A stretch of 64,000 nucleotides of DNA from Patescibacteria group bacterium (GTDB lineage: Bacteria; Patescibacteriota; Patescibacteriia; UBA9934; GWF2-40-263), in contig JAHJAM010000023.1 of NCBI GenBank assembly GCA_018814025.1, positions 1,896 through 65,895 of the forward strand, in the 5' to 3' direction. Under the pieces are notes generated by a model. The model was not told the origin of the DNA. It saw only the letters and a program-made list of their open reading frames with translations, and did no database searches. Below, in pieces: positions 7,157 through 50,814 of this stretch. The stretch's first letter is position 1. Each line of letters starts with the position of its first letter. The position numbers were made by a program, and so were the translations under genes.

Positions 7157-7978
7157 ATGAAGAAAAAACTTTTCACTTTAGCCGCCATTATCGTGGCGAT
7201 ATTTGCCCTTTACCTCATCCTTCCGGTTTCCCCGTTGCACGCGCCCGCGCCTGAAACTCCTGAGGATAATCTGGTTCGCCTTAATGATTTCCAGCCCGGT
7301 CAACTAATTGAGAGCCCCTTCGCCTTAACTGGCCAAGCCCGCGGTACTTGGTTTTTTGAAGACAGTTTTCCAGTCGAACTTCTGGATGACCAAGGCCGCG
7401 TCCTGGTCCAAACTCCGGCCCAAGCCCAAGCCGATTGGATGACCGAAGACTTTGTGCCTTTTTCCGTCACCCTAGATTTTATCCCCGCCTCCGCCACCGG
7501 CACCCTGGTCCTGAAAAAAGACAATCCTTCCGGCTTGCCGGAAAATGATGACGAGCGCCGCTTCCCAGTCAAGTTTAAAACGGCTGAAACCCAAACCGTG
7601 CAAGTCTATTTTGGCAATGACCAAACCGACCCCGGCATCATGCATTGTGAACGAACCTATCCCGCGGTCCGCGCCATCGCTCAAACCCCGGCCGTGGCCC
7701 GCGCCGCTCTTGAGGAACTGCTCAAGGGGCCGACCGCAAGCGAACAAGCCCAAGGCTTTCTGACTTCCTTGCCCGCGGGCGTAGCGATTCAGAGTCTCAC
7801 CATTGAAAATCGCGTGGCTCGGGTTGATTTTAATGAAGCCCTGGAATTCCAAGTCGGCGGCTCCTGCCGCGTGGCCGCCATCGTGTCGCAAATCACCAAT
7901 ACCTTGTTGCAGTTTTCCACCGTGGACTCGGTCGTCATCTCCATCAACGGCCGCACCCAAGACATTCTTCAACCCTGA
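7157..7978 (+). CDS. secreted GerMN-domain protein with N-terminal Ig-like (Gmad2-like) domain
   Basis: Signal peptide; C-terminal block ...ARAALEELLKGPT...GSCRVAAIVSQITNTLLQF... fits the GerMN domain; paralog of the gene at 53036. Confidence 0.55.
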   Translation: MKKKLFTLAAIIVAIFALYLILPVSPLHAPAPETPEDNLVRLNDFQPGQLIESPFALTGQARGTWFFEDSFPVELLDDQGRVLVQTPAQAQADWMTEDFVPFSVTLDFIPASATGTLVLKKDNPSGLPENDDERRFPVKFKTAETQTVQVYFGNDQTDPGIMHCERTYPAVRAIAQTPAVARAALEELLKGPTASEQAQGFLTSLPAGVAIQSLTIENRVARVDFNEALEFQVGGSCRVAAIVSQITNTLLQFSTVDSVVISINGRTQDILQP

Positions 7979-8072: not shown

Positions 8073-8939
8073 ATGAGCCAAATTCGCAAAGCCATTATCC
8101 CGGTCGGCGGCATGGGCACTCGCTTCCTGCCCGCTTCCAAAGCCCAGCCCAAAGAAATGCTGCCTGTAGTTGATAAACCGGTTATTCAATATATCGTTGA
8201 AGAGGCGGTCAAAAGCGGCATTGAAGAAATCGTTTTCGTCACGGCCATTGGCAAGCGCGCCATTGAAGATCACTTCGACCGCAACTTCGAACTTGAATAC
8301 CGCCTTGAGCAAAAAAAGAAAGTCAAAGAGCTCAAGGAAGTTTCCGCCATTGGCCGGCTGGCCAAATTCGCTTTCGTTCGCCAGCACAAGCCCATGGGCG
8401 ATGGTCATGCGGTTTTATCTGCTCTGCCGTTTGTTGATGCCCACGAACCCGTGGCCATTCTCTTTGGCGATGATATCATCGATGCCAAAATCCCGGCCCT
8501 CAAACAGCTCATGCAGGTTTACGACAAATATCAGGATCCGGTCATTGCTTTGCAGGCCGTGCCCAAAAACGAAGTTTCCAAATACGGCGTCATCGGCGGT
8601 CATCAGGTTACGGACAAAATTTGGGAAATCAATCAATTTATCGAAAAACCCTCCCCGGCCAAAGCCCCGTCCAACTTGGCCGTGGTCGGCCGCTACATCA
8701 TCACCCCGGAAATTTTTAATATTCTGCAAAAACAAAAACCCGGCCCGGATGGCGAAATTCGTTTAGCCGATGCTTTTGCCGCTTACCTCAAACAAAAGCG
8801 CGCCCTTTACGGCCGAATTTTTGATGGCACGCGCTATGACTGCGGCAACAAGCTCGGTTTTCTGCGCGCCCAAATCGAACTAGGCAAAAAGCACCCGGAA
8901 ATCGGCAAAGAATTTAAAAAATATCTCAAAACGATTTAA
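8073..8939 (+). CDS. galU: UTP--glucose-1-phosphate uridylyltransferase
   Basis: MSQIRKAIIPVGGMGTRFLPASKAQPKEMLPVVDKPVIQY... is the canonical GalU N-terminus; a TATAAT element lies at 8043-8048; the long upstream part of ORF 7803 is rejected. Confidence 0.85.
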   Translation: MSQIRKAIIPVGGMGTRFLPASKAQPKEMLPVVDKPVIQYIVEEAVKSGIEEIVFVTAIGKRAIEDHFDRNFELEYRLEQKKKVKELKEVSAIGRLAKFAFVRQHKPMGDGHAVLSALPFVDAHEPVAILFGDDIIDAKIPALKQLMQVYDKYQDPVIALQAVPKNEVSKYGVIGGHQVTDKIWEINQFIEKPSPAKAPSNLAVVGRYIITPEIFNILQKQKPGPDGEIRLADAFAAYLKQKRALYGRIFDGTRYDCGNKLGFLRAQIELGKKHPEIGKEFKKYLKTI

Positions 8940-8976
8940 CCCTTTGACCCTACCTACTTTTACCCTACCTACCCTT

Positions 8977-10356
8977 ATGTTTCGAAAAACCCTCCCCATC
9001 TTCCTCCTGCTCACTTTCCTCTTCACCACCGGCCAAGGCTGCGGCGGTCCTTCGGTGGCCGAGCAAGCGGCCGCTCAGCCCGTCACTTTAACTATCTGGC
9101 GAGTTTTTGATGAAGACGACACCATGAAGGACATCATGAATGCCTACCGAACCCTTCACCCCAATGTTTCTTTTGAATATCGCCAAATGCGGGTTGATGA
9201 ATACAAAAACGAACTTTTGCGCGCTTTTGCCGAAGGCACGGGCCCGGATATCTTTTCCATCCATAACACCTGGATGAATGAATTCAAAAGTTTGATCGGT
9301 CCCTTGCCCGCCTCGCTGACCATTCCCTACATCGAAATCAAAGGCACTATTAAACAAGAAAAAATTATCACTTTGCGCGAAGAGCCTTCGATTACTCCGG
9401 CTCAAGTTCGCCGCGATTTCGTGGATGTGGTGGCTCAAGACGCGGTCATGCGCTATCAGCCCAATCCCAAAGACGTGCCGCAAGAACGAATTTTTGGCCT
9501 GCCCATGTCCGTGGACACCTTGGCCATGTTCTATAACAAAGATTTATTAAACGCGGCCGGGATTGCGCAGCCCCCGACCAACTGGGCCGAATTTCAAGCG
9601 GCCGTCGTCGCTCTCACCAGTATTGGCACGGATGATTTAATTATTCAATCCGGCGCCGCCTTGGGCGGCAGTGCGAACGTGGAACGAGCTTTTGATATCG
9701 TTTCTTTGCTCATGATGCAAAACGGCACGCCCATGATTGATGATCGCGGCAATTGCACCATTGGCTGGAATGATCGAGATAAACAAACCGTGCCCGGCGC
9801 GGACGCAGTCCGCTTTTACACTGATTTCGCCAACCCGCTCAAAGAGGTCTATGCCTGGAATGCCAGCCAGCCCAACTCCTTTGATGCTTTCACTTCCGGC
9901 AAAACCGCTTTCTTCTTCGGTTATTCTTACCACCTGCCTCAAGTCCGCTCGCGCGCCCCGAAACTCAATTTTGCCGTGGCCCCCACCCCGCAAATCAGCG
10001 GCGGCCACACCGTCAATTACGCCAACTATTGGGTGGAAACCGTTTCCAAAGCCACCAAAGCCAACAATTGGGCCTGGGATTTTGTCCAATTCGCCACCAA
10101 GGCCAACCAAGTTCAAAGCTATCTGAAAATCGCCAACCGGCCCACGGCTCGCCGCGATTTAATCAACAGCCAAATCGATGATGAAGATTTAAATCCCTTC
10201 GTCAGCCAATTGCTCACGGCTCAAAGCTGGTACCGCGGCCAAGACATTGAAGTGGCCGAACAAGCTTTCCTGGATTTAATCGATGCGGCTTTAGCTGGAA
10301 AAATTATCGAAGATGAAATTGATCTGACCCAAAGCAAAATCAACCAAACTCTATGA
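8977..10356 (+). CDS. extracellular solute-binding protein, family 1 (sugar-type ABC transporter SBP), lipoprotein
   Basis: Signal/lipobox (..TTGQGC); family-1 signature region ...VDTLAMFYNKDLLNAAGI; no permease or ATPase gene adjacent. Confidence 0.5.
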   Translation: MFRKTLPIFLLLTFLFTTGQGCGGPSVAEQAAAQPVTLTIWRVFDEDDTMKDIMNAYRTLHPNVSFEYRQMRVDEYKNELLRAFAEGTGPDIFSIHNTWMNEFKSLIGPLPASLTIPYIEIKGTIKQEKIITLREEPSITPAQVRRDFVDVVAQDAVMRYQPNPKDVPQERIFGLPMSVDTLAMFYNKDLLNAAGIAQPPTNWAEFQAAVVALTSIGTDDLIIQSGAALGGSANVERAFDIVSLLMMQNGTPMIDDRGNCTIGWNDRDKQTVPGADAVRFYTDFANPLKEVYAWNASQPNSFDAFTSGKTAFFFGYSYHLPQVRSRAPKLNFAVAPTPQISGGHTVNYANYWVETVSKATKANNWAWDFVQFATKANQVQSYLKIANRPTARRDLINSQIDDEDLNPFVSQLLTAQSWYRGQDIEVAEQAFLDLIDAALAGKIIEDEIDLTQSKINQTL

Positions 10357-10781
10357 GGAAAATCATCCTAACAATTTTTGTCGGCTGTCTTTTTCTCCTA
10401 TCCGCTGCCCCGGCCTTGGCCGATGTGTGCAAAAGTGATAGCTGTTCTAAAACCGAAGTCGGCGCTTTCATGCAAGATATTGCCGCCAAATGCTACAACA
10501 CCGGCGATTGTTCCTTGGCCGACATCATGATCGTGATTAACAACGTGGGAATTTATGTCCTGGGCATCATCGGCTCTCTGGTTCTGCTCATGTATGTCAT
10601 CGGCGGCATCATGATGCTGACCTCAGAGGGAGGAGATCGGAAAGTCCAAGGAAAAAAGATGATCGTCGGTGCCACTGTTGGCATGATCATTGTCTTTGCC
10701 GCTTACGCCGCCATCATCACCCTGGACAGTGTTTTGCGCAATCGCGGCCTGGCCGAAACCATTAGCGAACAACAAAAGTAA
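10353..10781 (+). CDS. T4SS-pilin-like (TrbC/VirB2-like) small membrane protein, paralog 1, with 4-Cys insert
   Basis: Signal peptide; C-terminal GGIMMLTSEGG..K..GKK.I..A.VG.II..AAYA two-TM motif shared with the four downstream genes; ATGA start/stop overlap with the SBP gene. Confidence 0.55.
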   Translation: MRKIILTIFVGCLFLLSAAPALADVCKSDSCSKTEVGAFMQDIAAKCYNTGDCSLADIMIVINNVGIYVLGIIGSLVLLMYVIGGIMMLTSEGGDRKVQGKKMIVGATVGMIIVFAAYAAIITLDSVLRNRGLAETISEQQK

Positions 10782-10808
10782 CCAAATCCAACCAATAATC
10801 TTTATCTT

Positions 10809-11159
10809 ATGAGAAAACAATACTGGCTTGGCACTTTCCTGGGGATAACTCTGGCCTGTCTGCCCCTGATCGCCTTTGGCGCCAAATTAACTAATCCCCT
10901 GGGCGAAGGTCCTGATGCCGCGGATTTCCGTGTTATAATAGGCCGAGTTATTCAGTTTCTTTTGGGCTTATCCGGCTCCTTGGCTTTGCTCATGTTTGTT
11001 TGGGGCGGCGTTCAGTGGATGATTTCCGGCGGCGTTCCGGACAAAATCAAAAAAGGCAAAGACACTTTGATTTGGGCAACTATCGGACTTGTGGTAATAT
11101 TTACTGCATACACGCTGGTCAGCACCCTGATCAAGGCTCTGGCCAACAGTCCGGCTTAA
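10809..11159 (+). CDS. T4SS-pilin-like (TrbC/VirB2-like) protein, paralog 2
   Basis: Same architecture: WGGVQWMISGG..DKIKKGKD...GLVVIFTAYTLVS. Confidence 0.55.
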   Translation: MRKQYWLGTFLGITLACLPLIAFGAKLTNPLGEGPDAADFRVIIGRVIQFLLGLSGSLALLMFVWGGVQWMISGGVPDKIKKGKDTLIWATIGLVVIFTAYTLVSTLIKALANSPA

Positions 11160-11221
11160 CTCGTATCTTTATCAAATAACTTAATTAACCTCACTATAAA
11201 CTTAAGAGGTAAAACATCCAT

Positions 11222-11614
11222 ATGAAAGAACTTTATTACAAAATCGGCACCAAGTTAGCCATTTTGCCCGTGCTCTTAGCCCCTAAAGCCACCTTCGCCC
11301 AAGCTTTGGGACAAGAAGATCTTTTCGGCGGCATAGGTTCAGAAGAGTTTGCTGGCTCTGCCGGTTTGGGAAGCGCTAATTTGACCGATACCATTGCTTC
11401 CATCATCCGCACCATCCTCGGATTTTTAGGCATCATCGCCGTGGTCATTATCCTCTTCGGCGGTTTCAAGTGGATGACTTCCGGCGGCGCTGAAGAAAAA
11501 GTTAAAGATGCCAAAAAACTCATCATCTCCGGCATTATCGGTTTGGTAATTGTACTCTCGGCCTTTGCCATTGCCTCATTTGTCATCACCAACATCGCTC
11601 AGGTTGCTGCTTAA
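11222..11614 (+). CDS. T4SS-pilin-like (TrbC/VirB2-like) protein, paralog 3
   Basis: FGGFKWMTSGGAEEKVKDAKKLIISGIIGLVIVLSAFAIASFVITN. Confidence 0.55.
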   Translation: MKELYYKIGTKLAILPVLLAPKATFAQALGQEDLFGGIGSEEFAGSAGLGSANLTDTIASIIRTILGFLGIIAVVIILFGGFKWMTSGGAEEKVKDAKKLIISGIIGLVIVLSAFAIASFVITNIAQVAA

Positions 11615-11687
11615 TCGAAACGATTTTCTTGGGCCAACCATTGGTTGGCCCATAACGCAAGCGGATAATTTTTTATCCCTTCGCGTT

Positions 11688-12149
11688 ATGAAAAAGATCC
11701 TCAACGCCTTTTTCTTGATCATTATCGGTCTGTTCTCGTTCAGTGCCGTCCCGGCCTTGGCCCAAGGCGGCGTGGCTTTGGAAGGCCTGGATAAAACCGC
11801 GGGCGTGGCCGAATACACCACTGGCGAATCCGCCAATCTGACTAATGTCGTGGGTGGGTTGATTGGTTCGCTTCTGGGCGTACTCGGCATCGTTTTCGTC
11901 ATCCTGCTTATCTATGGCGGCATCAGATATATGACCGCCAGCGGTGATGAAACGCACGTCAAAGAAGCCAAAAGCCTTTTAATCGCAGCCACTGTCGGAT
12001 TAATTATCACGATTTCTGCTTACGCCATTGCCTCATTTACCCTGTCGAGATTATCCATTGGCTTAGGTATTGATAATCAGGGAAAACTAATCTGCGATCC
12101 GGAAACCGGCGTCTGTGTTCAAGGCGGACCAGCCGTTCCCTCTGACTAA
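11688..12149 (+). CDS. T4SS-pilin-like (TrbC/VirB2-like) protein, paralog 4, with Cys-containing C-terminal tail
   Basis: Start placed at MKKILNAFFLIIIGLFSFSAVPALAQG (signal peptide); YGGIRYMTASGDETHVKEAKSLLIAATVGLIITISAYAIASF; the upstream extension of ORF 11550 is rejected. Confidence 0.5.
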   Translation: MKKILNAFFLIIIGLFSFSAVPALAQGGVALEGLDKTAGVAEYTTGESANLTNVVGGLIGSLLGVLGIVFVILLIYGGIRYMTASGDETHVKEAKSLLIAATVGLIITISAYAIASFTLSRLSIGLGIDNQGKLICDPETGVCVQGGPAVPSD

Positions 12150-12194
12150 TTGCAACATAAATTTTATTTATAATAATCAATTATCTAAATCGCT

Positions 12195-12578
12195 ATGAAA
12201 AACATGTTCTACAAAATCGGAGCCTGGATCTCCGTTCTCCCGGTCCTTCTGCTCCCCACCGCCACTTATGCCGGACTTACCGATGCTGGCACTAACCTGT
12301 CTCAAGTTGGCGATGCCGCTAGTTTATCGCAAAACGAAAGAAGCTTACCGAAATTGATTGGTGGTTTGATTAACGTCATTATTAGTGTCTTGGGAATTGT
12401 CTTCGTGATTCTAATTGTCTACGCGGGTATCCTTTATATGACCGCCGGCGGCGAAAAAGACAAAGTCGAAAAAGCCAAAAATCTGATGATCCAAGCGGTG
12501 ATTGGTTTAGTCATCATTGTGGCCGCTTACGCCATTTCAAGCTTTGTTATCACCCAACTCACCACCATCACTTCATAA
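12195..12578 (+). CDS. T4SS-pilin-like (TrbC/VirB2-like) protein, paralog 5
   Basis: YAGILYMTAGGEKDKVEKAKNLMIQAVIGLVIIVAAYAISSFVITQ. Confidence 0.55.
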   Translation: MKNMFYKIGAWISVLPVLLLPTATYAGLTDAGTNLSQVGDAASLSQNERSLPKLIGGLINVIISVLGIVFVILIVYAGILYMTAGGEKDKVEKAKNLMIQAVIGLVIIVAAYAISSFVITQLTTITS

Positions 12579-12586
12579 TCTAAATC

Positions 12587-12618
12587 CAAAAACACCCCGC
12601 TTGGGCGGGGTGTTTTTT
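12587..12618 (+). terminator. intrinsic terminator ending the pilin array
   Basis: AAAAACACCCCGC-TTG-GGCGGGGTGTTTTTT. Confidence 0.7.
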
Positions 12619-12622
12619 AATT

Positions 12623-12650
12623 AAAAAAGCCCTCGACCGAAGTCGAGGGC
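12623..12650 (-). terminator. intrinsic terminator of the minus-strand lipoprotein genes
   Basis: On the minus strand AGCCCTCGACTTCGGTCGAGGGCTTTTTT. Confidence 0.65.
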
Positions 12651-12677
12651 TGTGTCAGAGAAAGAACGGAAAGGAGA

Positions 12678-13220
12678 TCAGTAGTACTGATCCACGCTGT
12701 CGACCGGTCCGTTGCCTCGACGCGCGCGCTTTTCCCAGACCTTGCGGCATCGGCCCTGATAGTCGCAGGACAAACCCACAACCACGATCTGAGCTCCGGG
12801 CTGGTCAATCGGCACCCACAAGGCCTGCCCGATCGGCGCCGCCTTGTAAGACACGCTGTCATAGCGCCCGTCGCCGTCCAAGTCCGCAAAGACCTGAGCC
12901 AGCGGCATACCGAAGCAGTTGGTCGATAGCAGATACACGCCCATCGATTCGAAGTTTACCACCATGTGGCTGGCCGTCGGCGCCTTCTTCTCCATGTGCT
13001 GGATCTCGAAGCCGCGGAAACCCACGGGCTTGCACGCCTTGGCCGACAGATGAGAGGCCGCCTTGTTGTACTCCTGCACCTCCACGGACTGGCCTGCCCA
13101 ATTGGGCTGCATGATTCGGGCCGAAGCCAGCTGACCGCGCGAACCCGGGTTATAGGTGAAAGGCACCATCCCGCAACCCACGCTTGCCGCTGCCAGAATG
13201 AGGATTATGAAACATTTCAT
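12678..13220 (-). CDS. hypothetical lipoprotein (GC-rich, atypical codon usage)
   Basis: Signal peptide with lipobox (AASVGC); 180 aa; I recognise no family; composition differs from the flanking genes. Confidence 0.45.
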   Translation of the reverse strand: MKCFIILILAAASVGCGMVPFTYNPGSRGQLASARIMQPNWAGQSVEVQEYNKAASHLSAKACKPVGFRGFEIQHMEKKAPTASHMVVNFESMGVYLLSTNCFGMPLAQVFADLDGDGRYDSVSYKAAPIGQALWVPIDQPGAQIVVVGLSCDYQGRCRKVWEKRARRGNGPVDSVDQYY

Positions 13221-13249
13221 GATTCTTCTCCCTTCTGTTGTAGTGGTTG

Positions 13250-13909
13250 CTACTTCTGATCGAACTCGCCACCCAGCAGGATCTCGTTATCCTTCTTGAT
13301 GACGGTCATCTCGTCCTTCATGACCTTGTTCTCCGTTTCGGCCGCCACCACTCGCTCTTCAAGCTTCTTAAGAGCTTCGGCACCGGCCGCTGACAGGCTG
13401 GCTGTTCCTGACTGGCCGGTTGGCGTATTGGCGAAACCTTGCTGAACCGGCATCGAAGTGCCGCCCAAAGCCGAAACCGGAACTGCCGTCGGCGCCTGCA
13501 CCCCATTCATCCTCATCATCTGATCCCGAAGGGCCATCTGAGAATCCATGAGGTAGATCTGATCGATCCCGCCGCCGAACATGTTACCCATGCCCGGCAT
13601 ACCCATCATACCCATACCATTGCCACCAGAGGCTGCCTGGACCACACTCGCGTCGCCTGTGGCGGCGCGCTTGCAGTTCCCGAAATTGTCGCAGTCCTCG
13701 ATCTGGGCGTTCTTGCCTTCTTCCATGGCCTTAGCCGTTGCCTTAGCCACCACCGTATCCGCGGTCTCGAACCCGTGGGTCTTCTTCTCTACCCTGACCT
13801 TGGCATGGGTCTCGGGATCTGTCTCGTACCGGACCTTGGACTCGGAAGTGTAAGCACATCCCGAGAGCATCGAAATCGCCAACGCGATCATCATCACTCG
13901 CTTCATCAT
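13250..13909 (-). CDS. Met/Gly-rich lipoprotein with C-terminal coiled coil
   Basis: Start placed at MMKRVMMIALAISMLSGC (lipobox LSGC); low-complexity GNGMGMMGMPGMGNMFGGG segment; C-terminal heptad-like KKLEERVVAAETENKVMKDEM. Confidence 0.45.
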   Translation of the reverse strand: MMKRVMMIALAISMLSGCAYTSESKVRYETDPETHAKVRVEKKTHGFETADTVVAKATAKAMEEGKNAQIEDCDNFGNCKRAATGDASVVQAASGGNGMGMMGMPGMGNMFGGGIDQIYLMDSQMALRDQMMRMNGVQAPTAVPVSALGGTSMPVQQGFANTPTGQSGTASLSAAGAEALKKLEERVVAAETENKVMKDEMTVIKKDNEILLGGEFDQK

Positions 13910-14111
13910 CGCCTCCTGCTGGTTAAAACCAGACGTTCTGACTGTTAATATTTCAAGGTCCAAAAAAGGCACCAACTCGAGGGGATGTTATACGCCCGGT
14001 AGTCCAACCAATGGTTGCACTTCCGGGTCAAGCCGGAACGTCGTTTCGTTTGGCTTCATAACATAAGTTAGCACCTTTTTTGACCCCTCAAATGTCATTT
14101 TGCAACAGCTA

Positions 14112-14140
14112 AATATATCACAATTTTACGATTTTGTCAA
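14112..14140 (-). promoter_or_regulatory. consensus sigma70-like promoter (TTGACA-N17-TATATT) for the lipoprotein genes
   Basis: Minus-strand TTGACA at 14135-14140 and TATATT at 14112-14117 with an exact 17-nt spacer; a leader of about 190 nt reaches the gene start near 13909. Confidence 0.5.
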
Positions 14141-14197
14141 CCCGATAGGACAGCAAACGGTTGTACTACCGGGTCAAGGGTTTGAGGCTAATTTTAG

Positions 14198-14238
14198 TAA
14201 AAAAAGAGCCCAAGCGCGTGTAACAACGCGCTTGGGCT
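14198..14238 (-). terminator. intrinsic terminator of the 799-aa membrane protein gene
   Basis: Minus strand AGCCCAAGCGCG-TTGTTACA-CGCGCTTGGGCT followed by CTTTTTTT. Confidence 0.65.
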
Positions 14239-14243
14239 AGAAG

Positions 14244-16643
14244 TTAAAAGGACTTGCAATTCTTATCGAACTTAGCCTTGGCCGCCTGATTGTTGGCCAT
14301 CAGCTCCTTCCAATTGGCACACAGAGCCTGCTGTCTGGGCGTGAGCTTCGGCTTTCCTCCCTGCTTCTTGCCGCCAGTCCCAATGGACCGAACAACCGGG
14401 CTTGCTCTGGGCAGATCGTTCTTGGAAACCTCGCCCCTGAACAGGAGCCAGCCCAGGAAGATGGCAACCAACATGGCCGATATTGTAGCGATCAAACCGG
14501 CCAAGTCAGGGCTGAAAGCGCTCAGCCCATCTTTGTACGAGCGTTGCATGCTTGCCCTGACAACCCCGCCGATCACCAAACAAATGATGATAGACAGAAT
14601 CACGAACAGTGCCTTACCACTGAGATCAGGCAGCTGATCAACGCCCATGATCGACAGAGAACTGTCGTTGATCATGTATTTCTGCTGGCCGGAAGGCGTC
14701 TCCACGGTCTTGACCAGAACTCCGGGCAAATTGACCATCGTGCCCTTGGGCAGGACCACGATCCCGGCCGCTCCGTCGCACGTGAAGTGCTCGACCAAAG
14801 CCTTTTTCTGCGCTTTAGCCTCAGTCTGCTTGCTGACGTTGTTCTTATTCTCCTCAGTCAACAAGCACTTGTCAGTCAAAGCCGCACTCAGCTTCTCACC
14901 GAAGACCTTGAGGGCCGGCTCGTAGCGCTGGCCCGGCAAAGGCACAACCAGGGTGTTAACCTGCTCGCCCTTGTCCGAAAACTCAGCCTGCCAAGCCACG
15001 GTCACGGGAAAAGCTGCACTCTCGCGCAAATCGTTGATCACGGCCGCTCGGCCGCACACCAACAACATCACGATCGCCAGCAAGATCGGCCAAGTGCCGA
15101 TCCGCTCTTCGCTTTTGGCCGAAAACAGCCAGGCCGAGAGCAGCAGCGCCGCCAACGTTCCCACCACTCGGCCGAACATCGCAAAGTCAGCCAAGTTAAT
15201 GAACACGCACAGGACCATGTTGAGCACGATCGCCCAAGCCAGACCCCGAGCGTAATTCACGCCCCAATGGAAATCTCGGCCGGCCGCGATTTCCGTGACT
15301 CGATCCAGCACTGCCTCCACAGCCTTCACCGGAAGCAGTAGCAAGGCAAGCGGCAGTCCCAGCCCCATGGCCAGCCCAATCGCCAAGACCGGGTAACCGA
15401 TCAGTGTGGCCAACCATGGCAAAGCCAGGAGCAACACCGCGATCAGCAAGCCCACAATGGACCGCTTGACCCAGGTCCAGATGAACTGTTTTCGGCGCGT
15501 GGCGACTTGGTCGCCTCCCTCATCGTCCGTAAACAAAGAGAGAATCGTCGATTTCCACTCCTGGAAGGGCGCCAATTCCGCGCCGCTCACATCAAGAGCG
15601 GTGATGTATTCGATCATGAACTCTTCCGGCATTGTGCCGTCAGGCTCAATTTTTCCCTCGAGCTGATGAGCCAGCTCTTCCAGGACCTGCACATTGCGAA
15701 TCGTCGCCGGATTATTGACCGCTTCCAAGAACTTCTCAAAGTTCTTGTACTTGACTGAGGTGAAGCTCAGCGAAGTCGTCCCGCGCATCCGACGTGCCAC
15801 CGACCTGATCACGGCCACGTGGACCTTGATCAACAGCGGACTGGCCTGGTCGAAATTCTTGACCGAAGGCTGGGTAGCGGTTGAAGCTTTCTTTTGAAGA
15901 TCAACCTCACCCACATTCCCCATGCACACCGGACAGAAGAATTTCTTCTGAGCCAAAGCGATGCCGATGGGATGAACTTCGACTTTCCAGAGCTTGCCTC
16001 CGACCAGCACATCCTTTTTTAACTTGTTGTCCCACCGTGTGGTCTGGGCATTCAGCTCCTCAAACATAGCCTCCGCACTCGCATACAGCTCGCACGGAAC
16101 CACCGGATTGCCATTCTCCTTCTTCATGACCGTCCCGTCGGCATTGAGCGCCACGCGATGCGCACCAGCCACCCGGGGGGCGACCGCTGCCATCTCGTAC
16201 TCGCCCACCGACGCGGCCGTCGTACCCGCGGCCGGCGTACCCAATTTCTCATCAACCGTCCGGTCAATGAGATCTTCGAGATCCGCATCCGCCAGCCCGT
16301 CCACAGCACCGAAGCACAGATGAGGAATCAGGGCCTTGATCACGGCTTTGGTCTTGGGCTTCAAGTAAGCGCTTGGAATAAAATCCACGAGCCACTCAGC
16401 CGCCCCGCCGACCGCTCGTCCGAACATCTCGAACCCCGGCAGTTTGCGCGCGCCATTGATCAACAGGAAGAAGGACTTGGCGAACTCGTTCTCATTCTGG
16501 CGCTTGGCCAGCTCCACCAGCAATGAACCGGCCACGTTCCGAGCCCCTTTCTCAAAGGTCTCGGTTCCGACCGCCTTGCCGGCAGTACCAAAAAAGTCTC
16601 CAAACCTGCTCAAATCCAAGTCTCCAAAAGTCACCTTGGCCAT
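14244..16643 (-). CDS. large polytopic membrane protein of unknown function (about 400-aa soluble N-terminal region with a CPVC motif, then two TM clusters and a basic C-terminal tail)
   Basis: 799-aa ORF with a good SD (GGAGGAAAGAG) before the ATG; GC-rich with AAG-preferring codon usage unlike the flanks; I recognise no known domain. Confidence 0.5.
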   Translation of the reverse strand: MAKVTFGDLDLSRFGDFFGTAGKAVGTETFEKGARNVAGSLLVELAKRQNENEFAKSFFLLINGARKLPGFEMFGRAVGGAAEWLVDFIPSAYLKPKTKAVIKALIPHLCFGAVDGLADADLEDLIDRTVDEKLGTPAAGTTAASVGEYEMAAVAPRVAGAHRVALNADGTVMKKENGNPVVPCELYASAEAMFEELNAQTTRWDNKLKKDVLVGGKLWKVEVHPIGIALAQKKFFCPVCMGNVGEVDLQKKASTATQPSVKNFDQASPLLIKVHVAVIRSVARRMRGTTSLSFTSVKYKNFEKFLEAVNNPATIRNVQVLEELAHQLEGKIEPDGTMPEEFMIEYITALDVSGAELAPFQEWKSTILSLFTDDEGGDQVATRRKQFIWTWVKRSIVGLLIAVLLLALPWLATLIGYPVLAIGLAMGLGLPLALLLLPVKAVEAVLDRVTEIAAGRDFHWGVNYARGLAWAIVLNMVLCVFINLADFAMFGRVVGTLAALLLSAWLFSAKSEERIGTWPILLAIVMLLVCGRAAVINDLRESAAFPVTVAWQAEFSDKGEQVNTLVVPLPGQRYEPALKVFGEKLSAALTDKCLLTEENKNNVSKQTEAKAQKKALVEHFTCDGAAGIVVLPKGTMVNLPGVLVKTVETPSGQQKYMINDSSLSIMGVDQLPDLSGKALFVILSIIICLVIGGVVRASMQRSYKDGLSAFSPDLAGLIATISAMLVAIFLGWLLFRGEVSKNDLPRASPVVRSIGTGGKKQGGKPKLTPRQQALCANWKELMANNQAAKAKFDKNCKSF

Positions 16644-16830: not shown

Positions 16831-16864
16831 AAAAAATTCCATCACCGGGTGATGGAATTTTTAC
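16831..16864. terminator. bidirectional intrinsic terminator (ends the Fe-S operon on the minus strand)
   Basis: AAAAAATTCCATCACC-GG-GTGATGGAATTTTT, a symmetric hairpin with A and T runs. Confidence 0.65.
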
Positions 16865-26612: not shown

Positions 26613-28019
26613 TTAAAGTGCGTACAGTCTTTGCTTAATCAATTCAATATCATGTCTTAATTTTTCATCTTCCTCCAAGCAGCCATTAATTTTTTCATAA
26701 GCGTGCATGGCTGTGGTGTGGTCGCGACCGCCTAATTCTGTGCCAATCGTCGGATAACTCATCTTCATTTCTTCCCGCATAATGAACATGGTAATTTGAC
26801 GGGGAAAGGCCAAACGTTTTTCTCGACTCTTGCCTAAAAGGTCTTCGATTTCCAGGTCAAAATATCCGGCCATGGTTTGGATTAGCTGTCGCGGGGTTAC
26901 ATTCTTTCGTGTTCCGGTCGGCTTAAAGCTGGCCATGATCGGTTGCACGGTATCAACGGTCGGTGAAATATTTTTAAATTGATGGAAAGCGATAATTTTA
27001 TTCAATGCCCCTTCCAATTCTCGCACATTGCTTTGGACGGCCATGGCCATGCAATGGAGTACTTCATTAGCCAGTGGATAACCTTTTTCTTGGCACTTCG
27101 TTTCCAGGATGGCCACGCGCGTTTCAAAGTCCGGACTGCCGACATCGGCCATCATCCCGCACTCAAATCGGGAAATTAACCTGCTTTCCAGGGTTGGGAT
27201 GGCTTTTGGTGGTCGGTCAGAAGTGATCACAATCTGTCTGTTTGACTGATATAATTGGTTAAAAGTGTGAAAAAACTCCTCTTGAGTGCCTTCTTTTCCG
27301 GTAATAAATTGGATATCGTCAACCAGTAGCAAATCGACATTTCTATAGCGATTTTTGAATTCTCGAGCCTGTCCGCCCCGAACCGCATTAATAAAGTCAT
27401 TGGTAAAACGCTCGCAAGTCACGTATAAAACTTTAACATTTGGGTTTTTATTGATCATTTCGTTCCCGATCGACTGCAACAGGTGAGTTTTTCCCAGACC
27501 CACCCCACCATAGATAAATAATGGGTTATAAACTCCTCCTGGCTGGGCCGCCACCGCCTGAGCTGCCGCATGAGCCAGCTCATTTTGTTTACCCACCACG
27601 AAATTTACAAAATTATATTTGCTGTTTACGGTTAAATCTCCTGAAACTTGTGATTGGCTGCCGGCTGATGGCATTGGTTGATGAGTCTGTAAGTTTTCTT
27701 GGTCGGGGATGGACTCTGGCCTATTCCCCATCACCTCTGCAGGGATCATTTGTGGTGATGCTGGGCGATTTTCAACTCGGTAGACGATCGTCTTAGTCCG
27801 GTTTCCGGTCAGATTCTGCAACGAAGTCATGATCTCTTTGTGATACTTCTTCTCAAGCCAGGCTTTGGTAAAAAGATTAGGTACGCCAATTATGACCTCC
27901 TCCTCCCGGCAAGATGCGATAAAAGTATTTTTAAACCAAGTGGTGAAATTAGCTTTGCTTAAAGAGAGTTCAAGCTCTCCCAAGACCGCCTGCCACAACT
28001 CATTTGAATCCATACTCAC
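26613..28019 (-). CDS. dnaA: chromosomal replication initiator protein DnaA
   Basis: N-terminal domain I (WQAVLGEL), AAA+ Walker A GGVGLGKTHLL, C-terminal DNA-binding domain. Confidence 0.9.
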   Translation of the reverse strand: MSMDSNELWQAVLGELELSLSKANFTTWFKNTFIASCREEEVIIGVPNLFTKAWLEKKYHKEIMTSLQNLTGNRTKTIVYRVENRPASPQMIPAEVMGNRPESIPDQENLQTHQPMPSAGSQSQVSGDLTVNSKYNFVNFVVGKQNELAHAAAQAVAAQPGGVYNPLFIYGGVGLGKTHLLQSIGNEMINKNPNVKVLYVTCERFTNDFINAVRGGQAREFKNRYRNVDLLLVDDIQFITGKEGTQEEFFHTFNQLYQSNRQIVITSDRPPKAIPTLESRLISRFECGMMADVGSPDFETRVAILETKCQEKGYPLANEVLHCMAMAVQSNVRELEGALNKIIAFHQFKNISPTVDTVQPIMASFKPTGTRKNVTPRQLIQTMAGYFDLEIEDLLGKSREKRLAFPRQITMFIMREEMKMSYPTIGTELGGRDHTTAMHAYEKINGCLEEDEKLRHDIELIKQRLYAL

Positions 28020-38244: not shown

Positions 38245-38272
38245 AAAAACGAGCCGGCTGGCTCGTTTTTTA
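38244..38272. terminator. bidirectional terminator between uppS and the ComM/YifB gene
   Basis: AAAAAAACGAGCCGGCTGGCTCGTTTTTT. Confidence 0.6.
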
Positions 38273-39787
38273 GTCAAACAACTCCGCTGGCCGATAGCGC
38301 AGCGCCTCGGCAATATGAGTGGCCGTAATCATCTCCTCGCCTGCCAAGTCCGCGATCGTGCGCGCGACTTTTTTGACCCGTGTAAACCCGCGCGCGGACA
38401 GTCGTTGGGCATCCAGCGCCTGTTTTAAAAGAGCTGTCCCCTCTTTTTCTATCTCACAATGTTGTTTTAAACTCGAAGTCGGAATCTCCGCATTGGTTAG
38501 ATAATTTGTTTTCTTATACCTCTTTTCTTGGAGCCGGCGTGCCACCCCAACTCGCTGGCGAATTGTTTTTGAATCCTCCGCATCTTTTTCTCCCATCAAT
38601 TTATCAACTTCCACGTTCGGCACCTCGATTATCAAATCGAATCTGTCGAGCAACGGTCCGGAAATTCTTTTTCGATACTGACTAATATTTCGCGCCGAGC
38701 AAATACACGCTCGATGCGGATCACTCGCGTACCCGCACGGACAAGGATTCGTGGCCGCCATCAAAAGAAATCTTGAAGGGAATCGTACGCTCGCGGCCGC
38801 TCGCGACACATGAACGAAGCCATCTTCCAATGGCTGACGCAAATGTTCCAACACATGTCGAGAAAATTCCGCCAGCTCATCCAAGAATAAAACACCGCGA
38901 TGAGCTAACGTCACCTCGCCTGGCCGCGGCCAGGTTCCTCCACCTACTAAAGAGATAGCCGAACATGAATGATGTGGTGTGCGAAACGGTCGTTCCCTGA
39001 TCAAACCGCCCTGTATTGGCAAGGTTCCAGCCACGGACGCAATCGAAGTCACCTCCAAAGATTCTTCATGCGTGAGCGGTGGCAGGATTGAAGGTAAGGA
39101 TCGAGCCAGTAGCGTCTTGCCCGTCCCCGGCGGTCCCTTGAGCAAAACATTGTGTCCGCCCGCCGCCGCAATCTCCAGTCCCCTTTTTGCCTGTTCTTGG
39201 CCTTTTATGTGTTTAAAATCGATATATGAATCCAAACACACTTTATTCATTTTCACCGGAATCGCCTCCGGAATTGCGTTTATGTTTTTTAAGTGTTCAA
39301 CCACTGATAGCAGACTCGTCGCCGGCAATACTCGCAATTTCCCCACCGCCAAAGCCTCCTGAATATTTTGTTCGGGTACGAATATCGTCATGTATCCTAA
39401 ATTTTTCGCCATCAAAGCCGAAGTTAAAACACCGGTTACGGGACGAACTTGCCCGTCCAAAGCCAGCTCACCTAAAAATAAAGTTTTATCCAAATCCGTC
39501 CGATCAAATTCGCCTTGTGCCAATAAAATTGCCAAAGCGATTGGCAGGTCGAAGCTCGAACCTTGTTTCTTGATGTCTGCCGGCGCCAAGTTCACGGTCA
39601 CTCGCGTACGCGGAAAACTAAAGCGCGAATTTTTTATGGCCGCGCGAATCCGATCGCGCGCTTCTTTAACCGATACGTCCGGCAAACCCACAATATTAAA
39701 ATTCGGCATGCCAGGCGATACATCTGCTTCCACGGTAATTGGCCGAGCCTCTATCCCAATTACCGCGCTGGAAAGAATATTAAACAT
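38270..39787 (-). CDS. YifB/ComM-family Mg-chelatase-like AAA+ ATPase
   Basis: N-terminal Lon-like domain, Walker A GPPGTGKT and a ChlI-type C-terminus; start placed at MFNILSSAV. Confidence 0.8.
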   Translation of the reverse strand: MFNILSSAVIGIEARPITVEADVSPGMPNFNIVGLPDVSVKEARDRIRAAIKNSRFSFPRTRVTVNLAPADIKKQGSSFDLPIALAILLAQGEFDRTDLDKTLFLGELALDGQVRPVTGVLTSALMAKNLGYMTIFVPEQNIQEALAVGKLRVLPATSLLSVVEHLKNINAIPEAIPVKMNKVCLDSYIDFKHIKGQEQAKRGLEIAAAGGHNVLLKGPPGTGKTLLARSLPSILPPLTHEESLEVTSIASVAGTLPIQGGLIRERPFRTPHHSCSAISLVGGGTWPRPGEVTLAHRGVLFLDELAEFSRHVLEHLRQPLEDGFVHVSRAAASVRFPSRFLLMAATNPCPCGYASDPHRACICSARNISQYRKRISGPLLDRFDLIIEVPNVEVDKLMGEKDAEDSKTIRQRVGVARRLQEKRYKKTNYLTNAEIPTSSLKQHCEIEKEGTALLKQALDAQRLSARGFTRVKKVARTIADLAGEEMITATHIAEALRYRPAELFD

Positions 39788-39853
39788 AAAACTTCCACCG
39801 CTATTGGTGGAAGTCAATTTCTATTCATAACTTATCAGAAAAAAATTGCTTTG

Positions 39854-50702: not shown

Positions 50703-50814
50703 GTCCATAAAAATTATTTTCAAAAGTTAGTATAAGTGGATTTATCCTACCGTTGATTCCGGATTTTGACAACCGGATGCAAATCTTTGTGTTGTGTCGT
50801 ATAATATAGATGAT

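What the first reader, a model, noticed from the sequence alone, without database searches (positions are those of the whole stretch)
10353..12650. Tandem array of five T4SS-pilin-like (TrbC/VirB2-like) paralogs
Five consecutive same-strand genes (142, 116, 130, 153 and 127 aa) each encode a signal peptide and a conserved C-terminal block: hydrophobic helix, YGG(I/F)xxMTSGG/AGG, a K-rich turn ((D/E)KVK(D/E)AK(K/N)L(I/M)I) and a second helix ending AYAI(A/S)SF(V/T)IT. This matches the small VirB2/TrbC-type pilins found in multiple copies in CPR/Patescibacteria genomes, which are thought to build DNA-uptake or cell-cell-contact pili. Paralog 1 carries a 4-Cys insert and paralog 4 a 2-Cys C-terminal tail, so they may be disulfide-stabilised (a DsbA-like gene lies at 49929). 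A perfect 21-nt palindrome (GGGCCAACCATTGGTTGGCCC, 11631-11651) separates paralogs 3 and 4, and the array ends in a strong terminator. The size and diversification of the array suggest antigenic/phase variation or a multi-subunit pilus.
Basis: partly seen in the sequence, partly recalled or inferred. Interest (0 to 1): 0.55.

Follow-up and report, generated by a model that had tools for sequence, protein, structure and literature searches.

The report
VirB2-like pilin gene array, Patescibacteria
Five neighbouring genes in an ultra-small (CPR/Patescibacteria) bacterium encode type IV secretion pilin-like proteins, a kind of array already described for this phylum; the copies are old, ordered and specialised rather than rapidly varying, and a conserved RNA hairpin splits the array in two.

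Summary
Five same-strand genes (10353-12578) each encode a signal peptide followed by a two-helix hydrophobic hairpin. Four pass Pfam T4SS_pilin (PF18895), and one also passes TrbC/VirB2. NCBI already names these proteins "pilin", and tandem VirB2-like arrays of 2-11 genes are published for Patescibacteria (PMC12102498; essential in Southlakia, PMC10633639). So this is an ordinary member of a known kind.

- **Ordered, old paralogs.** Each paralog has positional orthologs in relatives, and these are more similar than the paralogs are to each other. This argues against antigenic or phase variation and for specialised subunits.
- **Conserved upstream genes.** Across relatives of this lineage the array directly follows galU and an orphan sugar-type solute-binding lipoprotein. 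In the window that gene's stop overlaps the first pilin's start codon.
- **The palindrome is part of an RNA element.** It belongs to a covarying two-hairpin element after gene 3, and the second hairpin pairs the start codon of gene 4. A strong hairpin follows the gene-3 ortholog in 87% of 69 arrays.
- **No secretion machinery nearby.** No VirB4, VirB6 or VirD4 lies in the 64 kb window.
- **Variable neighbour.** A hypervariable, GC-rich three-gene block lies convergent to the array.

Pilus formation is inferred, not shown.

The parts
8073..8939 (+). galU (UTP-glucose-1-phosphate uridylyltransferase), a conserved upstream neighbour of the array
   Evidence: TIGR01099 scores 347.4 bits against a cutoff of 326.8. 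Pfam NTP_transferase also matches. A homolog lies upstream of the pilin array in 49 of 80 related loci.
8944..10356 (+). Orphan family-1 solute-binding protein, probably a lipoprotein (..TGQGC), directly upstream of the array. Its TGA stop overlaps the ATG of P1 (ATGA at 10353-10356).
   Evidence: SBP_bac_1 scores 94.5 bits and SBP_bac_8 76.3 bits. There are weak GanS/MalE-like matches. A homolog lies directly upstream of the first pilin in 55 of 80 related loci, mostly 0-100 nt away. The overlap is read from the sequence. No ABC permease or ATPase was found among the large ORFs scanned.
10353..10781 (+). P1: divergent pilin paralog (142 aa) with a 4-Cys exposed N-terminal segment. Position-1 ortholog class.
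   Evidence: PF18895 scores 20.7 bits, below the 26.6 cutoff. It best-hits array position 1 in most syntenic loci, at up to 53% identity. The four Cys align across orthologs.
10809..11159 (+). P2: shortest pilin paralog (116 aa). Position-2 ortholog class.
   Evidence: PF18895 scores 55.5 bits and PF04956 TrbC 30.9 bits against a cutoff of 27.9. It best-hits position 2 in most syntenic loci, at up to 68% identity.
11222..11614 (+). P3: the most conserved paralog (130 aa) and the candidate major subunit
   Evidence: PF18895 scores 41.8 bits. NF045849 scores 42.6 bits against a cutoff of 40. Orthologs reach 73% identity at array position 3 or 4. The AF2 model is a helical hairpin, H54-86 and H91-129, with mean pLDDT of 92-96 per 10-residue block over residues 61-120.
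11631..11651 (+).
   Evidence: Fold of 11612-11700 gives MFE -36.3 kcal/mol and z -6.15, with 0 of 200 shuffles as stable. All 7 modelled pairs show compensatory double changes across 8 loci.
11652..11690 (+). SL2: hairpin with a conserved outer stem (C)AUAACGYRAG / YUCRCGUUAUG and a covarying inner stem. Its 3' arm contains the would-be ribosome-binding region and the AUG of P4.
   Evidence: Covariance model R1 finds it once per locus, always right after the P3 ortholog, in 8-9 of the related loci within 1.26 Mb. Rfam has no match here.
11688..12149 (+). P4: pilin paralog (153 aa) with a 2-Cys C-terminal tail. Belongs to the variable distal class.
   Evidence: PF18895 scores 33.4 bits and NF045849 41.4 bits. 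Its best hits fall at varying late positions in relatives.
12195..12578 (+). P5: pilin paralog (127 aa). Last-position ortholog class.
   Evidence: PF18895 scores 42.4 bits and NF045849 39.9 bits, just under the cutoff of 40. It best-hits the last array gene in many relatives.
12593..12618 (+). Intrinsic terminator of the array (8-bp GC stem, 4-nt loop, T6)
   Evidence: Read from the sequence. The 70 nt after P5 fold at -31.9 kcal/mol. Array-terminal regions in relatives have median MFE -21.2 and z -4.06.
12678..16643 (-). Convergent GC-rich block of three genes: two lipoprotein-like proteins of 180 and 241 aa, and a 799-aa polytopic membrane protein. It is adjacent to the array; a functional link is not shown.
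   Evidence: No Pfam or NCBIfam family matches apart from one negligible sub-cutoff lipoprotein hit on the 241-aa protein. GC is 0.57-0.61 against 0.48 for the window. Related loci carry blocks of the same architecture and a similar GC excess at the same place, with no detectable sequence similarity. The 799-aa protein has only two homologs among the 8,000 word-sharing candidates scored from a 5.8-billion-protein database, both in the same synteny.

Best explanation
The region is a chromosomal array of five anciently diverged VirB2/TrbC-like pilins (Pfam T4SS_pilin family) in a Patescibacteria (CPR) bacterium of the Uhrbacteria/Magasanikbacteria-type lineage. It lies about 14 kb from dnaA.

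**Shown**
- Each gene encodes a cleavable Sec-type signal peptide and a two-helix hydrophobic hairpin joined by a short Gly- and Lys-rich turn.
- The five genes are ordered orthologs of genes in related genomes.
- They sit downstream of galU and an orphan solute-binding lipoprotein whose stop codon overlaps the first pilin's start.
- A covarying two-hairpin RNA element lies between genes 3 and 4.

**Inferred**
- After export and signal-peptide cleavage, the hairpins are extracted from the membrane and polymerised into a pilus or an envelope-spanning tube. The assembling machine would be a monoderm-type T4SS (VirB4/VirB6-like) encoded elsewhere in the genome. Such a structure would support contact or exchange with a host cell.
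- The variable N-terminal segments and C-tails would face outward. This is by analogy with solved VirB2/TraA pili.
- P3 is the major subunit. It is the most conserved paralog, and its gene is followed by a strong hairpin in nearly all related arrays. This resembles the attenuator or stabiliser hairpins after major-subunit genes of other pilus operons.
- P1 is a specialised minor, tip or adhesive subunit. It is Cys-rich and its Cys positions are conserved.
- P4 and P5 belong to a distal set of variable copy number. Their expression is lowered or gated by SL1 (transcript end or stabiliser) and SL2 (occlusion of the P4 translation start).
For: **Family**
- PF18895 is above cutoff for 4 of 5 paralogs, and PF04956 for P2.
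- NF045849, the Mycoplasma ICE pilin-like family, is above cutoff for P3 and P4.
- A profile of the five paralogs found 2289 homologs at E<=1e-3, almost all carrying PF18895. Those with an informative organism name are from Patescibacteria. Ten of the best 120 also carry PF04956, and one is named VirB2 by JGI.

**Topology**
- Hydrophobic segments.
- AF2 helical hairpin with mean pLDDT of 92-96 over residues 61-120.

**Arrays are the norm**
- The median is 6 pilin ORFs per related locus, range 1-13.
- The literature reports 441 arrays of 2-11 genes. The pilin array is essential in Southlakia epibionticum (PMC12102498, PMC10633639, PMC12857230).

**Ancient ordered paralogs**
- P1 maps to position 1, P2 to position 2, P3 to position 3 or 4, and P5 to the last position. 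Ortholog identity exceeds paralog identity.

**RNA element**
- Window fold has z -6.15.
- 85% of cells are paired against 67% in shuffles. Fifteen pairs show double changes against 9.0 expected, with 0 of 500 shuffles reaching either value. Slid controls pair at 39-55%.
- Across 69 arrays, the 70 nt after the P3 ortholog have median MFE -24.5 and z -3.8, and 87% reach -15 kcal/mol or lower. Other internal genes give -7.9, z 0.15 and 13% (p=1.9e-28).
- Several lineages have a canonical terminator at that place.

**Linkage to upstream genes**
- The solute-binding protein is found in 55 of 80 loci and galU in 49 of 80. Other neighbours are found in only 11-17 of 80.
Against: - No VirB4, VirB6, VirD4 or VirB11 gene is in the 64 kb window or within 10 kb of the arrays in related loci. 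The conserved downstream families there are housekeeping genes by inspection, not by Pfam scan.
- Whether this genome has a T4SS at all could not be tested.
- No pilus has been seen in any Patescibacterium. The literature calls it a possibility (PMC12857230).
- Fold searches of the model return only generic helical hairpins: ATP synthase subunit c and coiled coils. No VirB2 or TraA structure appears among the matches listed.
- The PDB sequence search found nothing.
- tblastn against plasmids found nothing.
- P1 is below the Pfam cutoff.
- The major/minor assignment rests on conservation and RNA structure only. No expression data were available.
- The covariation test has only 8 sequences, 7 of which built the model.
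Confidence: 0.6

Rival explanations
1. The hairpin proteins do not build an extended pilus. They form a short membrane or cell-wall-spanning oligomeric conduit, or act as accessory membrane subunits. This structure would work with the translationally coupled solute-binding lipoprotein in uptake of host-derived sugars or glycans.
For: - The gene order galU, solute-binding protein, pilins is conserved, with an ATGA stop/start overlap in the window.
- The binding protein is an orphan, with no permease or ATPase among the large ORFs scanned in the window.
- The best Foldseek probability (0.89) is to the ring-forming ATP synthase c hairpin.
- There are weak DctQ-type matches for P5 and for some homologs.
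- Reviews speculate on an uptake role for the Patescibacteria T4SS (PMC12857230).
- No T4SS genes lie near these arrays in this lineage.
Against: - The only significant family matches are to T4SS pilins.
- The DctQ and c-subunit resemblances are below threshold and are expected for any pair of hydrophobic helices.
- Conserved gene order is not proof of physical interaction.
Confidence: 0.2
2. The array is a reservoir for antigenic or phase variation, so that one or a few variable pilins are shown at a time to evade host or phage recognition.
For: - There are several divergent copies, with variable exposed N- and C-terminal segments.
- The distal part of the array varies in copy number between genomes, from 5 to 13.
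- The literature suggests adaptation to different hosts (PMC12102498).
- SL2 could gate expression of the distal copies.
Against: - The paralogs are old and positionally orthologous.
- Two near-identical MAGs have 99-100% identical arrays.
- There are no homopolymer or simple-sequence tracts, tandem repeats or invertible-segment repeats.
- No recombinase is adjacent; the nearest integrase-family gene is at 50794.
- DNA identity between copies is too low for gene conversion. The longest shared stretches are 42-47 nt at 72-74%.
Confidence: 0.07
3. The proteins are type IV pilus or competence pseudopilins (type IV filament family) rather than T4SS pilins.
For: - CPR genomes commonly encode type IV pili used for adhesion and DNA uptake (PMC10633639).
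- A ComM-like Mg-chelatase family ATPase is in the window at 38270-39817.
Against: - There is no class III prepilin leader or N_methyl match. The signal peptides are ordinary Sec type with AxA sites, and the proteins have two hydrophobic helices after the signal rather than one N-terminal helix plus a globular domain.
- No PilB, PilC or PilD lies nearby.
Confidence: 0.02

Closest known systems
VirB2-like pilin arrays of Patescibacteria (Pfam PF18895 T4SS_pilin), e.g. the six-pilin array in the T4SS locus of Southlakia epibionticum ML1
   Same: - Same Pfam family.
- Small proteins with a signal peptide and a two-helix hairpin.
- Tandem, sequence-divergent copies. The published mean identity is 25% with a maximum of 54%; here it is 28-44%.
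- Chromosomal location near the replication origin.
   Different: - Here the array is not next to virB4 or other T4SS genes. Published data give this for about 40% of assemblies (pilin near virB4 in 1135 of 1948).
- It is tied instead to galU and a solute-binding protein.
- Positional orthology and the internal RNA element were not found in the papers read here. No paper in the searched library links a solute-binding protein to these arrays.
TrbC/VirB2 pilins of Gram-negative conjugation and effector T4SS (Pfam PF04956; T-pilus VirB2, RP4 TrbC, F TraA)
   Same: - Signal peptide, two hydrophobic helices and a short charged turn.
- P2 passes the PF04956 cutoff, and P3-P5 give sub-threshold matches.
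   Different: - There is no BLAST-level similarity to plasmid pilins.
- No cyclisation or acetylation partner gene (TraF, TraX) was seen.
- The host is a monoderm.
- There are five ordered paralogs rather than a single pilin gene.
- No adjacent T4SS operon.
Mbov_0395 / MMCAP2_0565 family pilin-like conjugal transfer proteins of Mycoplasma ICEs (NCBIfam NF045849)
   Same: P3 (42.6 bits) and P4 (41.4 bits) pass the cutoff of 40, and P5 scores 39.9. These are also monoderm hosts with an MPF-FATA-type T4SS.
   Different: The Mycoplasma proteins are encoded as single genes on mobile ICEs next to conjugation genes. Here the genes form a chromosomal five-gene array with no relaxase or T4SS genes nearby.
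VirB2 paralog arrays of Bartonella and Anaplasma T4SS
   Same: Tandem amplification of divergent virB2 copies (cited in PMC12102498).
   Different: Those arrays are interpreted as antigenic variation in animal pathogens. Here the copies are old, ordered orthologs.
Major-subunit attenuator or stabiliser hairpins of pilus operons (e.g. after papA), cited from general knowledge and not tested here
   Same: A strong hairpin sits directly after one particular subunit gene inside a multi-subunit operon.
   Different: In the window's clade there is no U-tract. A second hairpin additionally pairs the next gene's start codon. No expression data are available.

Membership tests
Pfam PF18895 T4SS_pilin (Patescibacteria VirB2-like pilins) | Profile match above the curated gathering score | tested here: met
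   P2 scores 55.5, P3 41.8, P4 33.4 and P5 42.4 bits against a cutoff of 26.6. P1 scores 20.7, below the cutoff, but it is an ordered ortholog class within the same arrays.
Pfam PF18895 T4SS_pilin (Patescibacteria VirB2-like pilins) | Small protein with a cleavable signal peptide followed by two hydrophobic helices joined by a short turn | tested here: met
   Hydrophobic segments were found. The AF2 model has helices at 54-86 and 91-129 with high confidence. Cleavage sites were judged by inspection only.
TrbC/VirB2 pilin (Pfam PF04956) | Profile match above the gathering score | tested here: inconclusive
   P2 scores 30.9 bits against a cutoff of 27.9, so it passes. P3 scores 23.8 and P4 and P5 score 16.7, all below the cutoff. 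P1 gives no match.
TrbC/VirB2 pilin (Pfam PF04956) | Fold similar to solved T4SS pilins (TraA, VirB2) | tested here: inconclusive
T4SS pilus system (functional membership) | Encoded together with, or in a genome that has, VirB4 and VirB6-type assembly proteins | tested here: not met
   None of about 50 large ORFs in the 64 kb window matches these families. None was recognised within 10 kb of arrays in related loci, judged by clustering and inspection. The rest of the genome is not testable with these tools. Published data show about 40% of Patescibacteria assemblies that encode both VirB4 and VirB2-like pilins keep them apart.
T4SS pilus system (functional membership) | Polymerises into an extracellular filament | not testable with these tools
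   This needs microscopy or proteomics. It has not been shown for any Patescibacterium (PMC12857230).
NCBIfam NF045849 Mbov_0395 family pilin-like conjugal transfer protein | Score above the curated cutoff (40 bits) | tested here: inconclusive
   P3 (42.6) and P4 (41.4) pass. P5 (39.9), P2 (19.2) and P1 (16.0) do not.
Phase- or antigenically variable pilin locus | A variation mechanism: invertible promoter with recombinase, simple-sequence tracts, or silent cassettes similar enough for gene conversion | tested here: not met
   There are no tandem repeats or homopolymers of 7 nt or more in the array, no flanking inverted repeats and no adjacent recombinase. The copies share only 42-47 nt stretches at 72-74% identity. 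The paralogs are positionally orthologous across genomes.
Type IV pilin / pseudopilin | Class III leader peptide with N-methylation motif, and a single N-terminal helix | tested here: not met
   There is no N_methyl match. The signal peptides are ordinary and the topology is two-helix.
Rfam families (for the intergenic RNA element) | Covariance-model match | tested here: not met
   No match lies in 11615-11690 even at E<=10. The only sub-threshold matches are terminator-like and lie at 12433-12679, plus one weak match at 12048-12207.

The most novel reading that the evidence does not exclude
In this CPR lineage the conserved unit galU, solute-binding lipoprotein and ordered pilins would be a dedicated host-glycan or sugar acquisition organelle. 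A VirB2-type tube would be capped or primed by the Cys-rich first pilin and fed by, or feeding, the coupled binding protein. The conserved two-hairpin RNA after the major pilin gene would be a new regulatory RNA, for example a temperature-, ligand- or protein-responsive switch. That switch would decide whether the distal, copy-number-variable pilins are made. The adjacent hypervariable GC-rich lipoprotein and membrane-protein block would be the host-specificity part of the same apparatus.
Probability: 0.1. Interest if true: 0.8.

Novelty: new member of a known kind. Interest (0 to 1): 0.35.

Why it matters
VirB2-like pilin arrays are among the few envelope systems known to be essential for the host-dependent life of Patescibacteria, and nobody knows what they build or carry. 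This locus adds no new kind of system.

- The copies are specialised and ordered, so a multi-subunit structure is more likely than antigenic variation.
- One paralog stands out as the likely major subunit.
- An unannotated, covarying RNA element divides the array.
- A solute-binding protein is genetically coupled to it, which fits the proposed uptake role.

Each of these points can be tested with metatranscriptomes or in the cultivable Saccharibacteria systems.

Tried and rejected
- **Relatives search with all five paralogs.** The alignment had no stretch conserved enough to search with. It was redone with P3-P5.
- **PDB sequence search with the pilin profile.** Only a chance hit to a designed protein, E 0.82.
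- **tblastn of P2 against 72,556 plasmids.** No match.
- **Metagenome scan for the SL2 sequence pattern.** The 120 stretches returned were chance matches. Model R1 accepted only one of the 80 loci searched, an unrelated perfect palindrome without pilin genes.
- **The three downstream unknown proteins as T4SS parts.** There were no Pfam, NCBIfam or PDB matches beyond one negligible sub-cutoff lipoprotein hit. jackhmmer found no link to the positional equivalents in relatives. They remain unassigned.
- **Second copy of the palindrome core (14004-17) as a shared operator.** It does not recur in relatives, and about 0.15 such pairs are expected in 9 kb (my own estimate). It was treated as probable chance.
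- **Start-codon sequestration as a general rule across all related arrays.** The effect is only modest: pairing of the -15 to -1 region is 0.53 against 0.41. The claim is therefore limited to the window's clade.
- **Promoter scan.** The number of matches equals the chance expectation, so it was not used.

Full report
**1. Observation**

The five genes are real. ORFs of 142, 116, 130, 153 and 127 aa lie head to tail on the + strand at 10353-10781, 10809-11159, 11222-11614, 11688-12149 and 12195-12578, with spacers of 27, 62, 73 and 45 nt.

Each protein starts with a hydrophobic signal segment that ends in an AxA-like site (by inspection). Two further hydrophobic segments follow. Pairwise identities are 28-44%.

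P1 carries four Cys in the mature N-terminal part and P4 two in its C-tail.

The 21-nt palindrome is at 11631-11651. A canonical terminator closes the array at 12593-12618, and a second hairpin serves the convergent gene. The DsbA-like gene is confirmed.

**2. Family**

- Pfam T4SS_pilin (PF18895) is above its cutoff for P2-P5 and just below for P1.
- TrbC/VirB2 (PF04956) is above its cutoff for P2.
- NCBIfam NF045849, a pilin-like conjugal transfer protein of Mycoplasma ICEs, is above its cutoff for P3 and P4.
- A profile of the five paralogs finds 2289 homologs at E<=1e-3, nearly all carrying PF18895. Those with an informative organism name are from Patescibacteria (Uhrbacteria, Falkowbacteria, Parcubacteria).
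- The window's own proteins are in NCBI under the name 'pilin', on a 72,881-bp contig.
- The AF2 model of P3 is a confident helical hairpin.
- Fold searches cannot tell this fold from any other helical hairpin. The PDB sequence search and the plasmid tblastn gave nothing.

**3. Context**

The window is a CPR-type chromosome around the origin of replication: dnaA at 26613-28019, then dnaN and rnpA. None of about 50 large ORFs is a VirB4, VirB6, VirD4, VirB11 or type IV pilus assembly protein.

A second MAG (GCA_018822945.1) has the same locus at 99-100% protein identity.

**4. What is already known**

Quinonero-Coronel et al. 2025 (PMC12102498) searched 3,035 Patescibacteria genomes with PF18895 and PF04956. 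They report:
- 441 VirB2 arrays of 2-11 genes;
- mean identity of 25% between array members;
- the pilin gene near virB4 in 1135 of 1948 assemblies;
- frequent placement of T4SS genes near dnaA.

Wang et al. 2023 (PMC10633639) showed that the pilin series in the T4SS locus of Southlakia epibionticum is essential for epibiotic growth. A 2025 review calls a pilus in these monoderms an intriguing possibility and speculates on uptake from the host (PMC12857230).

The array is therefore a member of a described kind.

**5. Comparative analysis of 80 related loci**

**(a) Arrays are the rule.** The median is 6 pilin ORFs per locus, range 1-13.

**(b) The paralogs are positionally orthologous.**
- P1 best-hits array position 1, P2 position 2, P3 position 3 or 4, and P5 the last gene. 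P4 hits variable late positions.
- This holds in genomes whose flanking solute-binding protein is only 35-60% identical.
- Ortholog identity (up to 53, 68 and 73% for P1, P2 and P3) exceeds paralog identity.
- The duplication is therefore old and the copies are specialised. Copy-number change happens in the distal part of the array.
- P1 orthologs keep the four Cys positions. Many also carry a Cys-rich C-terminal extension that the window's P1 lacks.

**(c) The upstream genes are conserved.**
- The galU gene is found in 49 of 80 loci and the orphan family-1 solute-binding protein in 55 of 80. Other neighbours are found in only 11-17 of 80.
- The binding-protein gene usually ends 0-100 nt before the first pilin.
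- In the window its TGA overlaps the ATG of P1.
- The papers read here do not mention this link, and no paper in the searched library does.

**(d) No T4SS genes near these arrays.** By clustering and inspection, no T4SS gene lies within about 10 kb of the arrays in this lineage.

**6. The palindrome is part of a conserved RNA element**

The P3-P4 spacer folds into two adjacent hairpins with MFE -36.3 kcal/mol and z -6.15; 0 of 200 shuffles are as stable.
- SL1 is the palindrome.
- SL2 (11652-11690) pairs (C)AUAACGC with GCGUUAUG. The would-be ribosome-binding region and the AUG of P4 therefore sit inside the stem.

Seven close relatives have the same architecture, with different SL1 sequences and covarying SL2 inner stems.

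A covariance model finds the element once per locus, always directly after the P3 ortholog, in 8-9 loci out of 1.26 Mb searched.

On the 8-sequence alignment:

| Measure | Observed | Shuffled | Shuffles reaching observed |
|---|---|---|---|
| Cells paired | 85% | 67% | 0 of 500 |
| Pairs with changes on both sides | 15 | 9.0 | 0 of 500 |

Slid controls pair at only 39-55%. The sample is small and the alignment was fitted to the model.

SL1 keeps its pairing but not its sequence. It therefore acts as a structure in RNA rather than as a sequence-specific DNA operator. Rfam has no match.

Beyond this clade the sequence motif changes, but the principle holds. For the 70 nt after each gene in 69 arrays:

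| Position | Median MFE (kcal/mol) | Median z | Fraction at -15 or lower |
|---|---|---|---|
| After the best P3 ortholog | -24.5 | -3.8 | 87% |
| After other internal genes | -7.9 | 0.15 | 13% |
| After the last gene | -21.2 | -4.06 | 82% |

The difference between the first two rows has p=1.9e-28. The spacer after the P3 ortholog is also longer, at 98 nt against 20 nt. Several lineages have a plain intrinsic terminator at that place.

Occlusion of the next start site is strong in the window's clade, with pairing of 0.73-0.92. Overall it is only modest.

**7. Interpretation**

*Shown:* family membership, topology, ordered orthology, the conserved operon neighbours and a conserved structured spacer.

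*Inferred:*
- The proteins are exported and processed, then assembled by a T4SS encoded elsewhere into a pilus or tube.
- P3 is the major subunit. It is the most conserved paralog, and its gene is followed by an attenuator-like structure, as after major-subunit genes of other pilus operons (general knowledge).
- P1 is a disulfide-stabilised specialised subunit.
- P4 and P5 are distal subunits made at a lower or regulated level.

*Rivals:*
- The main rival is that the hairpin proteins, together with the coupled binding protein, form a membrane or wall conduit for uptake without an extended filament. I cannot exclude this.
- Antigenic or phase variation is unlikely. The paralogs are old and ordered, there is no variation machinery, and two sampled populations carry identical arrays.
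- Type IV pilins are excluded by signal type and topology.

**8. The neighbour**

A GC-rich block lies convergent to the array at 12678-16643. Its GC is 0.57-0.61 against 0.48 for the window. It encodes two lipoprotein-like proteins and a 799-aa polytopic membrane protein with no family match.

Related genomes with lower GC (0.40-0.52) carry a block of the same architecture and high GC (mostly 0.55-0.67) at the same place, but with no detectable sequence similarity. The 799-aa protein has only two database homologs, at 41-44% identity, in the same synteny.

Whether this block belongs functionally to the pilin system is open.

**9. Verdict**

The variation hypothesis is not supported.

The array is a new member of a known kind, so interest is moderate to low. 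The added value is fourfold: ordered orthology, coupling to the solute-binding protein, the unannotated RNA element, and the hypervariable GC-rich neighbour.

Noticed in passing
window 12678-16643 (minus strand); equivalents L023 11217-15385, L008 11375-15498, L069 11294-15336, L016 11672-14627, L050 11358-15290: A GC-rich three-gene block lies convergent to the pilin array: two lipoprotein-like proteins plus a 660-860 aa polytopic membrane protein. Its GC is mostly 0.55-0.67 against genome values of 0.40-0.52. It keeps its position and architecture across species but shows no detectable sequence similarity. The window's 799-aa protein has only two homologs among the candidates scored from a 5.8-billion-protein database.
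   Followed up: partly
window 8073-10356; L004-L083: In this lineage galU and an orphan family-1 solute-binding lipoprotein directly precede the pilin array (49 and 55 of 80 loci). In the window the binding protein's TGA overlaps the ATG of the first pilin (ATGA at 10353-10356). No ABC permease or ATPase was found among the large ORFs scanned in the window.
   Followed up: partly
window 14004-14018 and 14112-14140 (minus strand): A second copy of the palindrome core (CAACCATTGGTTGG) lies in the spacer between the 799-aa and 241-aa genes. It sits inside a possible 23-codon ORF and downstream of a near-consensus TTGACA-17-TATATT promoter. It does not recur in relatives, so it is probably chance.
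   Followed up: yes
L048 9950-20308, L054 9950-20012, L058 7250-15859, L065 9908-15367: In a few related genomes the pilin-like domain is part of very large ORFs (541-2897 aa) rather than small stand-alone genes.
   Followed up: no
one search hits P0003, P0005, P0010 (249-262 aa): Some homologs are about twice the usual length and carry PF18895 together with PF27259. They may be fused or extended pilins.
   Followed up: no
L007, L008, L023, L053, L006, L069 (first gene of each array): Position-1 pilins of relatives carry an extra C-terminal tail of about 60-90 aa with 8-10 Cys. The window's P1 lacks this tail, whereas the window's P4 has a short 2-Cys tail.
   Followed up: partly
record titles of L004-L006, L009-L011 and many others: Many GTDB genome records titled 'uncultured Gammaproteobacteria bacterium isolate binchicken/SRP...' carry typical Patescibacteria loci syntenic with Uhrbacteria. 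The titles look like placeholders or mislabels.
   Followed up: no
window 16832-16862: A perfect 15+15 nt inverted repeat (AAAAATTCCATCACC / GGTGATGGAATTTTT, 1 nt apart) lies between the 799-aa gene and the Pyr_redox gene.
   Followed up: no
window 12150-12177: The AT-rich P4-P5 spacer holds a promoter-like match (TTGCAA-16-AATAAT), which could give P5 its own start. The scan's total number of matches equals the chance expectation.
   Followed up: no
window 7157-7978 and 53036-54061: Two paralogous Gmad2 plus Germane domain proteins are in the window. One lies just upstream of galU.
   Followed up: no
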